In this document: positions 15,217 through 56,968 of the stretch, piece by piece
How positions within the stretch are numbered: the first letter of the stretch is position 1
How the letters are laid out: each line of letters opens with the position of its first letter
NCBI GenBank assembly: GCA_964016885.1
Contig: OZ024749.1
Location: 38,378,001-38,442,000 of the forward strand
DNA from: Eledone cirrhosa
Taxonomy: Eukaryota
Direction: 5' to 3'
Length of the DNA stretch: 64,000 nt
Translations under genes and position numbers: made by a program
The notes under the pieces: model-generated
Databases searched by the model: none
What the model was told of the DNA's origin: nothing
Seen by the model: the letters and a program-made list of their open reading frames with translations, nothing else

Positions 15217-16069
15217 AGATATCTGCATATATGTACATCCCCTATCCGTTGCCACTCTAAAACAACAAATTCTTTCAATTTATCGTTCAGTGTTGCTTAG
15301 ACAAACTTATCGACTCGTGTTGTTTTGGGACAATGATAACAGTATATTCCTATTATATATATACATACATAATAATAGAATTATAATTTTACCTTTTCTA
15401 TACATATATATATATAATAGTTAAATAAAATCATAAGTGGGTGAGTTATCACTAAAATAAATAATAAATATTAGCAAATATGCACATATTTGCTAATACG
15501 GACATAAACGACAAACGAATACAAGCATTTCATTTCCACTTCAGCCTCACATTGGAAATACAAATTCGCGCGTTAGGTCGTTTATGACCGATTTTCTGTG
15601 TACATTTGCTAATATTTATTGTACTGGTAACTGCTATGCACTGCATGACAACCACTGTTGGTTTTGTTATTAAATCTTACTCTCTATTACTCTGTCTCTC
15701 AGCGTTACATATTGCGCATACGCCCTTGCCTTTGGTTGGGTTAGATAATTGAGTGGTTTAGATAATTTTGTATGTCTTTTCAGCAGAAATACTAGATTGT
15801 GTTCCCCTGTGTGGTATATTTTGTGTTCAGTGATTTTGTTATTATGTTGTTCGGTATTCTCCTTTAATTCTAACTAGGTCCTGTAGATGTTATGGGTCAG
15901 AAATTGTGTTAACGACCAACCTACTATATATTCATCTCGCTTACTCACTTTCTCTCTCTCTCTCGCCCTTTCTCTCACTCTTTATATATCTATATGTGTA
16001 TATATTATATTATATTATATTATATATGTATATATATATATATTTATATATATATATATATATTTATAT

Positions 16070-16627
16070 ATACAATATGTTGAAAAGGTAACACACTAGA
16101 GAGAGATATACAGTGCGCTATCAATAAAACAGGGAAAAAACCGCCAGTGTATGGAATCTATAACCTATGAAAGGCAGACTAATGACACGATAATTAAAAA
16201 TATAAATTAAAGCGTAAATAAATACCTCTATAACTATATAACACACGTACAAATCCAAAGAGATCTGTTTCACCAGTAAGTTGTTGACAGAAATGGAATA
16301 ACCCCGAGGTTATTCCATTTCTGTCAACAACTTACTGGTGAAACAGATCTCTTTGGATTTGTACGTGTGTTATATAGTTATAGAGGTATTTATTTACGCT
16401 TTAATTTATATTTTTAATTATCGTGTCATTAGTCTGCCTTTCATAGGTTATAGATTCCATACACTGGCGGTTTTTTTCCCTGTTTTATTGATAGCGCACT
16501 GTATATCTCTCTCTAGTGTGTTACCTTTTCAACATATTGTATTTTAAAGAGCTCAGGATTTCTTCTCCTTTGAGCACATTATTTACAGGGAATGGCGAGG
16601 GTCTATGGCTCCGTTAATTTATCGTTA

Positions 16628-16628
<1 letters not shown>
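16070..16628 (+). mobile_element. TA-nested family F fold-back element: near-perfect palindrome of about 473 bp plus tail of about 85 nt
   Basis: 16070-16303 pairs with 16308-16542 (loop ccga, one indel seen). Contains hammerhead 3' half gaaa-cagatc...gatttg-ta-cgtgtg. Confidence 0.92.
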
Positions 16629-16670
<42 letters not shown>

Positions 16671-16968
16671 TAGCTGGCCTGACCGCTGGCGCCCGGCTAG
16701 GTATACCGGCATTTTATCTTTTCAGGAATCCCCCCCACACCCCAGTGCAAAGATACCGCACGCCCTCTCAATTCAACAAGAGGGGGGGTAACGCGCTCTT
16801 ATGTTGGGTTTGAATAGATTTTAGGATTCCCCAGTTCAGCAGCCAGTACGTTAAAGAAAATTGATAGTTACAACAATAAAGGCTGAACAGAGAACAAATT
16901 TTTTTAACAAACTTTACAATAATTTGTACAACCATAATGGAAACTCCAAGTAACAGAAAATACATAAA

Positions 16969-17165
16969 TTACATTGTTAGAGCCTCAGAGTATACAATAT
17001 TTTTTGTTCGGCCCTCGAGAGCAAAGATGAAGAGATTGTTTGGCGAGCTCACCCTAGAGCATCCTAGATACAATTGACCATGGGAGAAGCATGGTTTTCC
17101 CAGATGAAGGCCAGCCACTTTTAGGGTTTGACCCTGAGCTTTGTTGATGGTAATCGCGAAGCTTA
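16969..17165 (-). pseudogene. Helitron Rep-Hel Pif1 helicase C-terminal fragment
   Basis: LSFAITINKAQGQTL..AGLHL..PCFSHGQLYLGCSRV...TKNIVYSEAL matches Pif1 motifs V/VI as found in Helitrons. Confidence 0.92.
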
Positions 17166-17368
17166 GTCTCTCTCTGTTGCTCAAGTAACATTTTTTCTTC
17201 TGGAAAATCTGATCTTGCGGCCAGGCTGGGACCTTTTGGGTTGCATATCGGCAGTAACAATGACGATAAGCCGTTTGTGCTTTCGTGAAATAAATACGTT
17301 TGTTTATATTTTGTTTTTATGAATAGCAAAAATATCTGTACATGAATATATAATTATATATATATATA

Positions 17369-17675
17369 TATTAAAATAACAGATTAAATTTAAGCAAAGA
17401 ATCGCTGCTTTCACCCTTAACGGGATCTTCTGAAACTAAAAAAATCAATCTGTGAACGAAGAAGTAAATATTTCGAAAAACGCTGCAACCGAAGGAAAAC
17501 AGGAAGGCGATACTTTGGATCGTGAAGACCTTCCCTGGCAATGAACTGAAAAAAGCGAAGATAATACGTCAGCAATAATAACAATGTTTGCTCTAGGGTT
17601 CTTATATATTTGATATATATTTATCCTTATCGAGCCCTCTTTGGATTTTAGTCTTCACATTTATTATTATTACTA
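17369..17675 (+). mobile_element. TA-nested family G element (inverted arm plus tail) with variant hammerhead
   Basis: Begins tattaaaataacagattaa (inverted arm), ends cgagccctctttggattttagtcttc..ttattattattact. Homologues at 36812, 39858, 43082, 54451 and 56890. Confidence 0.8.
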
Positions 17676-18115
17676 ATTATATGTTTTGAGAGGGTGTGCG
17701 GTATCTTTGCACTGAATTAATTAAAAGTTGGTTAGAAGCGAAGTCAATGCAGACAGGCATCCAGACAAACAGATATTATATGCGTGCGACGTGATAGCTA
17801 TGTATCTATTGCAGACAGCCAGACGTACAGAGACATATTATAAGGGCGCGACGTTGTAGCTATGTATCTATCTAAAAAGACAGACTAAGAAAGAGAGAGG
17901 AATGTCGTATAACCGGAAGTGTTGACATTTGAACATTTTAAAGAAGTAAATATTTAAATAAACGATAAAATACCTTTAATCTTTTAACGAAATTTAGAAG
18001 ACAAAAATACCCTCACTTTCTTACTTAGGAAAAAGTTACATCTATGGTGCAAATTTGGTGCTTTTTGGTCCAGCGGTTTGGCGAAAAGTTTGTTACATAC
18101 ATACGGCCGTCAGCT

Positions 18116-18193
<78 letters not shown>

Positions 18194-43085: not shown

Positions 43086-43176
43086 ATAATAATAAATGTG
43101 AAGACTAAAATCTAAAGAGGGCTCCATAAGCAGCGATTCTTTGCTTAAACTTTAATCTGTTATTTTAATAAATATA
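43082..43176 (-). mobile_element. Family G copy with centre missing
   Basis: Tail in reverse complement fused to aagcagcgattctttgcttaaactttaatctgttattttaata. Confidence 0.8.
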
Positions 43177-43728
43177 TACAAACACACGTTTACTGGTACA
43201 ATCCATCCGACAGGCTTCTACTCAATCTTCACCCACCCAGTTTCACTCACAAGACATGGGTTGACCTAGAGTAATGTCAGATTAAATTCATGTTACGTAA
43301 TATAACATGAGAGCGTTATCGTGTTTGATACCAACATCTGTCTTCTATCAATATACAGAAGCCTGGCCTGACCAAGTTAAGGCTTCTTCCTGCTATTAAT
43401 ACTATGTTACTCGGCACAATCTACTTCACGGTCAAGTGGTCGGTGACTAAACCGGCTCCACGCCAGACTCTGGTCTTTTGAGGAGGGTAAATGGAATCCC
43501 AGCAGCACAAAGCAACAGTGGTTAAAAGGATGGATGAACTTCTCAGAGTCAACGGCCAATCACTTCAACTATGAGTTAAATAGCCTCACCAACCCTTAAT
43601 TGGCTAAGCGTGGAGAGTCTGGCTACACCCCTGACATGACAAACACCAACGAAAGTGGTGGAGGTCAACCAGGGAGGGGCTCCTCCAATAGAAGTGAGAA
43701 GGCATTTGATTGGATATATATATATGTG

Positions 43729-54193: not shown

Positions 54194-54436
54194 GATATTA
54201 TTAAATGGAAACTATATTTATAAAACCATATTTATTCCATTATACATATTTCAGGGATACCACATTAAATTATGGTATGCCTTCATCAGACAAAATACAA
54301 TAAATAACAGTTTTACAAATAGGTTTGACGTACACTTTAAAATACAACCATTACTCAAAAATTTGTCGAGTGCTTTATATCAGTTATAAAAATATTTACT
54401 TGTTGTATCCCAACAACTTTAAATAGAACTTTTGCA
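54193..54436 (-). ncRNA. Family B copy with hammerhead (core tcatcag at 54283)
   Basis: Minus strand tattttgt-ctgatga-aggcatacca...tggtatccct-gaaa-tatgta-ta-atggaata. Confidence 0.78.
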
Positions 54437-54450
54437 TATATATATATATA

Positions 54451-54656
54451 TATTAAAACAACAGATTAAAGTTTAAGCAAAGAATCGCTGCTTTCACCCT
54501 TAATGGGATCTTCCGTTAAGGGTGAAAGCAGCGATTCTTTGCTTAAACTTTAATCTGTTATTTTAATAAATATTTGCCCCACCGTTCTTATATATTTGAT
54601 ATATATTTATCCTTATCGAGCTCTCTTTGGATTTTAGTCTTCAAAATTATTATTAT

Positions 54657-55455: not shown

Positions 55456-55704
55456 TTAATATAGATGAGATTCTACAGGTCTAGAACTGTTTCATTCTTT
55501 AGAAATCATCAGGAATCTGGGTATCAAAAAATAAATATGGTATTTATAGGTCTCTACAAGTGGTAGGAGAGGGTGGGGTGTGGGATGGGTGTAGGTCATT
55601 GGTTGATAGAAAAGGAATTCATTACAAGCTAATTCTACAATGTACTCTGCAATGTATTGAGTACCTTACTTACTGTGGTTACCTCCGATTCAACCCGGAA
55701 TAGA

Positions 55705-55742: not shown

Positions 55743-55958
55743 AGAAAACTTATAATGAAACAATTGTTTGGAAAGAGAGATGTATTTTAACTTTAATTAT
55801 ATCTCATAAAATAATACAACTGGCTTTTCCACATAATACATATTGTTAGCACCCCAAACACTTAAATTGGGTTTATATTAAAATATAACCTAATCTTTGT
55901 TGAGTGAGATGGTTACCAGTCAGAGTTTAGCTTTAAACTATCTCTGTTATTGTATTAA

Positions 55959-55982
<24 letters not shown>

Positions 55983-55989
<7 letters not shown>

Positions 55990-56890
55990 ATGTTGAAAAG
56001 GTAACACACCAGAGAGAGATATACAGTGCGCTATCAATAAAACAGGGGAAAAAACCACCAGGGTATGGAATCTATAACCTATGAAAGTCCGACTATAGAC
56101 ACGATAATTAAAAATATAAATTAAAGCGTAAATAAATACCTCTATAACTATATAACACACGTACAGCTGGACAGTCACTTTTAAAATTCTCTTAGTGTTG
56201 TCTGAAATGTATAGCCTTACACACGCTGATGAACCGAGGCTAACCCATTTCTTTCAACACATTACTAGTGAAACATATCTTTGGCTTAGTATCTTTGGAT
56301 TTGTACGTGTCTTATATAGTTATAGAGGTATTTATTTACGCTTTAATTTATATTTTTAATTATCGTGCCTATAGTCTGCCTTTCATAGGTTATAGATTCC
56401 ATACACTGGTGGGTTTGTTTCCCTGTTTTATTGATAGCGCACTGTATATCTCTCTCTGGTGTGTTACCTTTTCAACATATTGTATTTTAAAGAGCTCAGA
56501 ATTTCTTCTCCTTTGAGCACATTATTTACAGGGAATAGCGAGGGCCTATGCCTCCGTTAATTTATCGTGATATTTCGCTCCTAATAACAGTCTTTCCTAT
56601 CTCTGTTTGGTTGAGCACACTTCTGTGAGTGGCTTTGGGCTGCCCTTTCTAGCAGTTCGTCCCTCAGAGGCCACTGGTTCACTGCCCTTAAACTCGCTGT
56701 GACTTCTCTCTCCCACGTGTAGCTGGACAGTCACTTTTAAAATTCTCTTAGTGTTGTCTGAAATGTATAGCCTTACACACGCTGATGAACTGAGGCTAAC
56801 CCATTTCTTTCAACAAATTACTGGTGAAACATATCTTTGGATTAGTATCTTTGGATTTGTACGAGTGTTATATAATTATAGAGGTATTTT
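55983..56890 (+). mobile_element. Family F: inverted arm followed by 1.3 head-to-tail copies of a 556-nt hammerhead-containing unit
   Basis: 55983-56165 is inverted relative to about 56302-56486. agctggacagtc...ctgatga occurs twice, cores at 56226 and 56782. Confidence 0.88.
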
Positions 56891-56968
56891 GTTAGTTTCA
56901 GAAGATCCCGTTAAGGGTGAAAGCAGCGATTCTTTGCTTAAACTTTAATCTGTTATTTTAATAAATAT
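56890..56968 (+). mobile_element. Family G fragment fused to family F
   Basis: agttt-cagaaga-tccc gttaa gggt-gaaa-gcag...ttgc-tt-aaact, ending ttttaataaatata. Confidence 0.8.

What the first reader, a model, noticed from the sequence alone, without database searches (positions are those of the whole stretch)
55983..56890. 556-nt ribozyme-to-ribozyme tandem unit: candidate retrozyme or circular RNA
Two hammerhead cores (56226, 56782) lie 556 nt apart in a head-to-tail repeat with no recognisable protein. Predicted fold, combining copies: stem I cacacg/cgtgtg, CUGAUGA, stem II acc(g)ag/ctggt, GAAA, stem III cagatc/gatttg, GUA site. Double cleavage would release a monomer able to circularise. 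The upstream inverted arm stops at ...cacacgtac (56165), essentially at the predicted cleavage site, as expected if the template was a self-cleaved RNA (inference).
Basis: partly seen in the sequence, partly recalled or inferred. Interest (0 to 1): 0.85.

Follow-up and report, generated by a model that had tools for sequence, protein, structure and literature searches.

The report
Penelope-spread hammerhead retrozyme family, damaged copy
This is one damaged copy of a non-coding 556-base repeat with a hammerhead ribozyme motif, present in over a thousand scattered copies that carry the insertion marks of Penelope-type retrotransposons and were likely copied from an uncut, possibly circular, RNA.

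Summary
In detail: two type I hammerhead cores lie 556 nt apart in a head-to-tail repeat behind an inverted arm. The locus is one insertion of a dispersed non-coding family (1,266 exact core motifs genome-wide), with subfamilies ~70% identical over the whole unit. Copies sit in (TA)n and end at two fixed 3' sites 88 nt apart. In 89 of 91 two-armed insertions one arm uses each site: the Penelope 'tail' signature. No arm continues into a matching PLE ORF, so this is a non-LTR retrozyme, a known class. Templates were therefore uncut or rejoined. Arms end more often after one full unit, as a circular template predicts; this replicated for one arm class only. Both ribozymes here have stem lesions, and the inverted arm would bury the first cleavage site, so this copy is probably inert. 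No RNA data were available and the autonomous partner was not found. The scan earlier noted similar Penelope-type non-coding units in other genomes.

The parts
55959..55982 (.). (TA)n target tract at the left junction
55983..56165 (-). Inverted arm, unit positions 328 to 145; starts at the short fixed 3' end (position 328)
56158..56165 (.). Junction of the two arms over an imperfect microhomology (CACGT shared)
56158..56713 (+). Full 556-nt non-coding unit (positions 1-556)
56219..56312 (+). Type I hammerhead 1: core 56226-56232, GAAA 56270-56273, predicted cut after 56305; stem II has a C-A mismatch
56485..56485 (+). Short fixed 3' end of family insertions (unit position 328), inferred reverse-transcription start
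56486..56573 (+). 88-nt 'tail' between the two fixed 3' ends; 56573 is the long end (position 416)
56306..56861 (+). Predicted ribozyme-to-ribozyme monomer, 556 nt, 39% GC
56714..56889 (+). Partial second unit (positions 1-176); the family's normal 3' end is missing
56775..56868 (+). Type I hammerhead 2: core 56782, predicted cut after 56861; stem I has an A-A mismatch
56886..56968 (+). 3' piece of another abundant repeat family (B), joined over a TTT microhomology and ending in (TA)n

Best explanation
The locus is one truncated, likely inactive insertion of a dispersed non-coding hammerhead-bearing repeat family (a non-LTR retrozyme) that is likely copied into (TA)n tracts by the enzyme of a Penelope-like retrotransposon, from an RNA that is uncut or rejoined at the ribozyme site, most likely a circular monomer. 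Steps: (1) inferred: a rare intact two-ribozyme copy is transcribed. (2) Inferred from the literature: both hammerheads cut and a host ligase closes a ~540-556-nt circle. (3) Pattern shown, enzyme inferred: a GIY-YIG endonuclease nicks (TA)n on both strands, and reverse transcription starts internally at unit position 328 on one side and 416 on the other. (4) Shown: each arm ends at a variable point, mostly reads through the ribozyme site and sometimes passes one full unit, which regenerates tandems. (5) Inferred: the two cDNA ends join over microhomology, giving the head-to-head inverted structure. At this locus the 3' part of the long arm was later lost against a neighbouring family-B element (inferred). 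Odds: family identity and PLE-type mobilisation about 0.9; circular rather than linear uncut template about 0.5; this copy inert about 0.8.
For: Copy number: 2,630 first-look candidates; 1,266 exact stem I + core motifs against 9 in the control; 511 full-core matches against 0. Fixed ends abutting (TA)n: 412 + 126 exact matches at position 328 and 854 + 46 at 416, controls 0. One end of each type in 89 of 91 two-armed insertions. What lies 5' of 320 arms: 250 inverted unit, 34 TA, 32 other, 4 same-strand unit. An older subfamily (~70% identity) is collinear over the whole unit with the same ends. Across three subfamily consensuses 389 of 556 positions are identical, against core 13 of 13, stem I 14 of 14 and loop II 13 of 30. 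136 of 144 arms cross the scissile bond, 15 cross it twice, and 56 of 320 exceed one unit. Arrays reach ~3.6 units. Units within a locus differ 3.1% (39 pairs) against 5.4% between loci (252 pairs). The stop rate rises past one unit: 2.7 to 6.3 per kb pooled, P=2e-5, with a best free change point at 560 nt in the first sample. In the same 88 positions, long-end arms on their second pass stop at 8.4 per kb and short-end arms on their first pass at 3.0 per kb (P=0.012). Long RT + GIY-YIG ORFs exist in the genome.
Against: No cleavage or RNA evidence. No autonomous PLE with a homologous pLTR among 50 GIY-YIG loci. No covariation above shuffles; stem II is only 66% paired and its first pair is unpaired in 19 of 29 sequences. 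The hammerhead fold is 7-8 kcal/mol above the free minimum even in the consensuses. The core conservation is partly ascertained, since the older subfamily was reached through a core motif. The one-unit rise did not replicate for short-end arms (3.5 to 3.35 per kb) and reached only P=0.06 in the second sample. A fixed-position model was only 1.0-1.5 log-likelihood units worse. The partner arm was the nearest relative in only 4 of 10 two-armed loci. In the one PLE tested in vitro, the ribozyme was dispensable and uncut RNA was the main template (PMC11167929). Only 1 of 9 frog retrozyme dimers cleaved in vitro (10.64898/2026.07.22.740005). The tail here is 88 nt against the usual 30-40 nt (PMC8557442).
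Confidence: 0.75

Rival explanations
1. Same family and same PLE-type insertion, but the template is a linear uncut multimeric transcript. Tandems are regenerated by template jumps, and the hammerhead is weak, protein-dependent or has another role.
For: Read-through of the cleavage site (136 of 144) fits equally well. An anole PLE uses unprocessed RNA and its ribozyme needs protein (PMC11167929). Stem II is weak. Short-end arms show no one-unit rise in the second sample.
Against: Core and stem I are kept across 30% divergence while loop II drifts. Long-end arms show the rise at one unit from their own start in both samples (2.4 to 9.2 and 2.2 to 7.3 per kb). No pile-up of 5' ends marks a transcript start.
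Confidence: 0.35
2. The copies are 5'-truncated 3' ends (pLTRs) of a coding Penelope-like element, not an independent non-autonomous unit.
For: The insertion anatomy is that of PLEs, and many coding PLEs are present. One arm (L396) abuts a PLE ORF in the same orientation.
Against: Long arms continue into the same unit rather than into an ORF. The 250 nt upstream of 320 arms gave 2 PLE-protein hits, 1 of them strong, and the L396 ORF is cut off inside its endonuclease domain. The unit has no PLE-like coding remnant (best E 0.44).
Confidence: 0.06
3. A local tandem duplication or satellite with a chance hammerhead-like motif.
For: No Rfam match; the hammerhead is not the minimum-energy fold.
Against: Over a thousand dispersed copies with fixed ends in (TA)n; all conserved core bases are present with three stems in the right order.
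Confidence: 0.01

Closest known systems
Animal non-LTR retrozymes (Cervera & de la Pena 2020, PMC7229834; Li, Clavereau & Pollet 2026, bioRxiv 10.64898/2026.07.22.740005)
   Same: Type I hammerhead in each head-to-tail unit, no ORF, GC under 50%, monomers to multimers dispersed in the genome, co-occurrence with PLEs.
   Different: The unit (528-556 nt) is longer than the 150-450 bp of the 2020 paper but within the 51-972 bp of the 2026 preprint. Stem III is 6 bp rather than 1-2 bp, and loop II is long. Expression and circles are untested here. The parts of those papers that I read infer PLE mobilisation from co-occurrence and pLTR homology; here it is read from insertion ends.
Endonuclease-bearing Penelope-like element insertions (Arkhipova 2013, PMC3846280; Craig 2021, PMC8557442; Frangieh 2024, PMC11167929)
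   Same: 5' truncation, partial tandems, inverted 5' arm, a tail at only one end matching two internal reverse-transcription starts, AT-rich or (TA)n targets, microhomology junctions, hammerhead in the repeat.
   Different: No ORF; the tail is 88 nt rather than 30-40 nt; no homologous autonomous partner found.
Non-autonomous Chlamys elements such as MRC1 (Craig 2021, PMC8557442, passage)
   Same: Non-coding PLE derivatives forming pLTRs and multicopy head-to-tail insertions.
   Different: Those lack canonical hammerheads and resemble their autonomous families at the 3' end; here a hammerhead is present and no such family was found.

Membership tests
Non-LTR retrozyme | Type I hammerhead motif in each repeat unit | tested here: met
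   Core complete in both copies; 511 full-core matches genome-wide. Both focal copies carry stem lesions.
Non-LTR retrozyme | Head-to-tail tandem units, dimers to multimers, no LTRs | tested here: met
   Arrays to ~3.6 units; 6 same-strand pairs 534-545 nt apart among the first 100 listed motif hits (counted by eye).
Non-LTR retrozyme | No protein coding; GC below 50% | tested here: met
   Longest stop-to-stop frame 70 aa in the young consensus and 115 aa in the middle one; no PLE protein match; GC 39%.
Non-LTR retrozyme | Unit size in the described range | tested here: met
   528-556 nt: above the 150-450 bp of PMC7229834, inside the 51-972 bp of the 2026 preprint.
Non-LTR retrozyme | Self-cleavage of the RNA | not testable with these tools
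   Only folding estimates; no covariation above shuffles.
Non-LTR retrozyme | Expressed as linear and circular monomer RNA | not testable with these tools
   No RNA holder listed; only indirect arm-length statistics.
PLE-mobilised non-autonomous element | Fixed 3' ends, variable 5' truncation, inverted 5' arm | tested here: met
   250 of 320 arms abut an inverted arm.
PLE-mobilised non-autonomous element | Tail present at only one end of the insertion | tested here: met
   89 of 91 two-armed insertions; length 88 nt, not 30-40.
PLE-mobilised non-autonomous element | Homology to the pLTR of an autonomous PLE | tested here: inconclusive
   None among 50 GIY-YIG loci out of 10,596 candidates.
Coding PLE (unit as its pLTR) | RT + GIY-YIG ORF between the repeats | tested here: not met
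   Long arms continue into the unit itself; 6 of 255 loci have any PLE protein hit and 1 abuts an arm.

The most novel reading that the evidence does not exclude
The family is a long-lived RNA-circle parasite of Penelope-like elements, and its insertions record rolling-circle target-primed reverse transcription directly in the genome. Two internal priming sites, read-through of the re-ligated ribozyme site and a stall when the enzyme meets its own cDNA after exactly one turn would be genome-scale evidence for the step that the retrozyme papers propose but did not show.
Probability: 0.45. Interest if true: 0.65.

Novelty: new member of a known kind. Interest (0 to 1): 0.4.

Why it matters
Retrozymes are proposed to be copied from RNA circles by Penelope-type enzymes, on the basis of co-occurrence and pLTR homology. 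This family shows the Penelope tail rule on a hammerhead-bearing non-coding unit, with over a thousand copies and defined priming sites. That makes circular versus linear template, and the role of the hammerhead in PLE-type transposition, testable by counting arms and by a simple in vitro assay. The locus itself is an ordinary damaged copy.

Tried and rejected
Rfam at gathering and E-value thresholds: no hammerhead family hit. tRNA module: none. Sigma-70 promoter scan: at chance level and not apt for a eukaryote. Sequencing runs: no RNA holder listed; the three holders are one sample of unknown kind and their contigs say nothing on expression. Search for the autonomous partner: BLAST and a family profile against 50 GIY-YIG loci, and tblastn of 7 PLE proteins against the unit and 255 family loci, found none. 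L396/L421 is a single junction to a PLE ORF whose ends look unlike the unit. An excess of 5' ends at positions 153-167 and 255-262 in the first sample did not replicate. An apparent cluster at 134-137 was partly an alignment artefact of a 14-nt loop duplication. Post-insertion collapse of tandems as the cause of the one-unit rise fitted 2.9 log-likelihood units worse but is not excluded. Cross-family chimeras are rare: 1 of 177 arms by BLAST and one more seen by eye in L192. No genome-wide dimer count was obtained. Literature searches for insertion-anatomy evidence on retrozymes listed no such study; subscription papers and bioRxiv supplements were not visible. One search used a guessed host group as a search word; no call names the organism and it gave nothing on this family.

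Full report
OBSERVATION. The structure is (TA)n, an inverted arm (55983-56165, unit positions 328 to 145), a full 556-nt unit (56158-56713), a partial unit (56714-56889, positions 1-176), then the 3' piece of another repeat and (TA)n. Each unit carries a type I hammerhead: stem I ACACACG, CTGATGA, stem II, GAAA, stem III, GTA, then stem I again. Predicted cuts fall after 56305 and 56861. Both copies are damaged: a C-A mismatch in stem II of copy 1, an A-A mismatch in stem I of copy 2, and a U-U mismatch in stem III of both. Forced into the hammerhead fold they score +0.2 and -7.4 kcal/mol against free minima of -17.5 and -19.6; the young-subfamily consensus scores -15.7 against -22.5. Rfam gives no match.

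FAMILY. The host genome G000 is 3.0 Gb and unnamed. The unit has 2,630 first-look candidates, of which 40 were scored, 1,266 exact stem I + core motifs (control 9) and 511 full-core matches (control 0). A third, rearranged copy lies at window 16068-16632. Subfamilies at about 80-87% and about 70% identity are collinear over the whole unit with the same ends. Across three consensuses 389 of 556 positions are identical, against 13 of 13 core bases, 14 of 14 in stem I and 13 of 30 in loop II. The 5' half of that conservation is ascertained, because the oldest subfamily was reached through the core motif. On 29 aligned copies, stems I, II and III are 92%, 66% and 88% paired with no covariation above shuffles. 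Consensus monomers folded as circles are more stable than 30 shuffles (z -3.8, -3.3, -6.8); this locus's monomer is less so (z -1.7). The unit is non-coding.

INSERTION ANATOMY. Copies end at unit position 328 or 416 and run into (TA)n: 538 and 900 exact matches over four patterns, controls 0. I mapped arms anchored on these ends in two samples: 177 arms from 131 of 140 loci and 143 arms from 105 of 115 loci, with 19 repeats skipped. Arms with mutated ends were missed by the pattern. One duplicate row stayed in the first sample except, and one probable segmental-duplicate pair was kept. In 89 of 91 two-armed insertions one arm starts at 328 and the other at 416. [quoted passage not shown] Here it is 88 nt. 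Upstream of the 320 arms lie an inverted arm (250), TA (34), other DNA (32) or same-strand unit (4). Long arms continue into the preceding unit. One arm abuts a PLE ORF cut inside its endonuclease domain (L396). The genome holds long RT + GIY-YIG ORFs, but none of the 50 loci examined has a pLTR homologous to the unit.

WHAT WAS THE TEMPLATE. The inverted arm includes GTA, 3-4 nt past the scissile bond, and joins the other arm over a CACGT microhomology. Pooled, 136 of 144 arms that reach the site cross it; stops at 146-152 are 8 against 4.2 expected (P=0.06), so at most a minority of templates were cut linear RNAs. Of 320 arms, 56 exceed one unit and 15 cross the site twice. Because arms end at about 4 per kb, arrays would shorten every generation unless regenerated by a circle or a template jump (inference). 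A circle predicts more stops once the enzyme meets its own cDNA after one turn. The rate rises from 2.6 to 7.9 per kb in the first sample (P=3e-5), with a best free change point at 560 nt, and from 2.9 to 4.8 in the second (P=0.06). The rise holds for 416-arms in both samples but for 328-arms only in the first. Over the same 88 positions, 416-arms on their second pass stop at 8.4 per kb and 328-arms on their first pass at 3.0 (P=0.012). A fixed-position model and post-insertion collapse fit worse by 1.0-1.5 and 2.9 log-likelihood units and are not excluded. This is suggestive, not proof.

THIS LOCUS. Only 61 nt of sense sequence precede the first ribozyme. A read-through transcript is predicted to pair 56303 and 56306 with the inverted arm, burying site 1. 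The long arm lacks its family 3' end and is fused over TTT to family B; a later deletion or secondary insertion is likelier than a template switch, since such joins are rare (1 of 177). The copy is probably inert.

COMPARISON. It works like, and on the sequence criteria is, an animal non-LTR retrozyme. Self-cleavage and circular RNA could not be tested. Cervera & de la Pena 2020 (PMC7229834; abstract, passages and Discussion read) showed circles for coral, mussel and axolotl repeats and proposed that PLE enzymes make tandem cDNA from them. Li et al. 2026 (bioRxiv 10.64898/2026.07.22.740005; parts 1-3 of 5 read, supplements closed) linked frog retrozymes to pLTRs by homology and found cleavage in 1 of 9 dimers. 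Also seen: PMC4209133 (part 1 of 4) and PMC3846280 (passages). Earlier scan notes describe similar Penelope-type non-coding units in other genomes (their claims were not checked).

VERDICT. New member of a known kind; interest 0.4. The family-level insertion statistics are the useful part.

Noticed in passing
window 56886-56968; also 17347-17600, 54436-54640, 43128-43178: Family B: a more abundant repeat (about 20-40 times the laid depth) with its own two-armed, tail-at-one-end insertions. It holds a hammerhead-like motif with core CAGAAGA in place of CUGANGA (AGTTT-CAGAAGA-TCCC/GGGT-GAAA-GCA/TGC-TT-AAACT, read by eye). No PLE ORF beside 25 loci.
   Followed up: partly
window ~16670-18122, minus strand: Helitron-type element: a 41-aa remnant matches the Helraiser transposase (E 2e-7) and PIF1 helicases, and it ends in a hairpin plus CTAG (by eye). 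It carries a nested family-B insertion that recurs in several of the loci.
   Followed up: partly
window 16068-16632: Third copy of the family with two inverted arms (328 and 416 ends) that both stop inside the hammerhead, so neither core is complete.
   Followed up: partly
window ~55460-55520, minus strand: A compact type I hammerhead of another family 470 nt upstream of the finding; the same motif recurs in L096, L100 and L107.
   Followed up: no
window 32954 (+), 35020 (+), ~54289 (-), ~34880 (-), ~12074 (-): Further short-stem-III type I hammerheads of a third family (C) that also ends in (TA)n. L192 joins an arm of the studied family to a piece that looks like family C.
   Followed up: no
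L396:1510-3028 / L421: A family arm is joined in the same orientation to a nearly complete, GC-richer PLE ORF (58% identical to L101) cut inside its GIY-YIG domain; the rest of the ORF is not on the other side. Insertion with deletion, or a template switch onto a partner's RNA.
   Followed up: partly
window 55933-55979: The left flank ends in a stretch 90% like the family-B 3' end, so the element landed in the TA tail of an earlier similar element.
   Followed up: no
L091:3309-6122 (-), L093:1275-4562 (+): Long open PLE frames (938 and 1,096 aa stop to stop) with RT and GIY-YIG matches; at least eight PLE families, some with hammerheads behind the ORF.
   Followed up: partly
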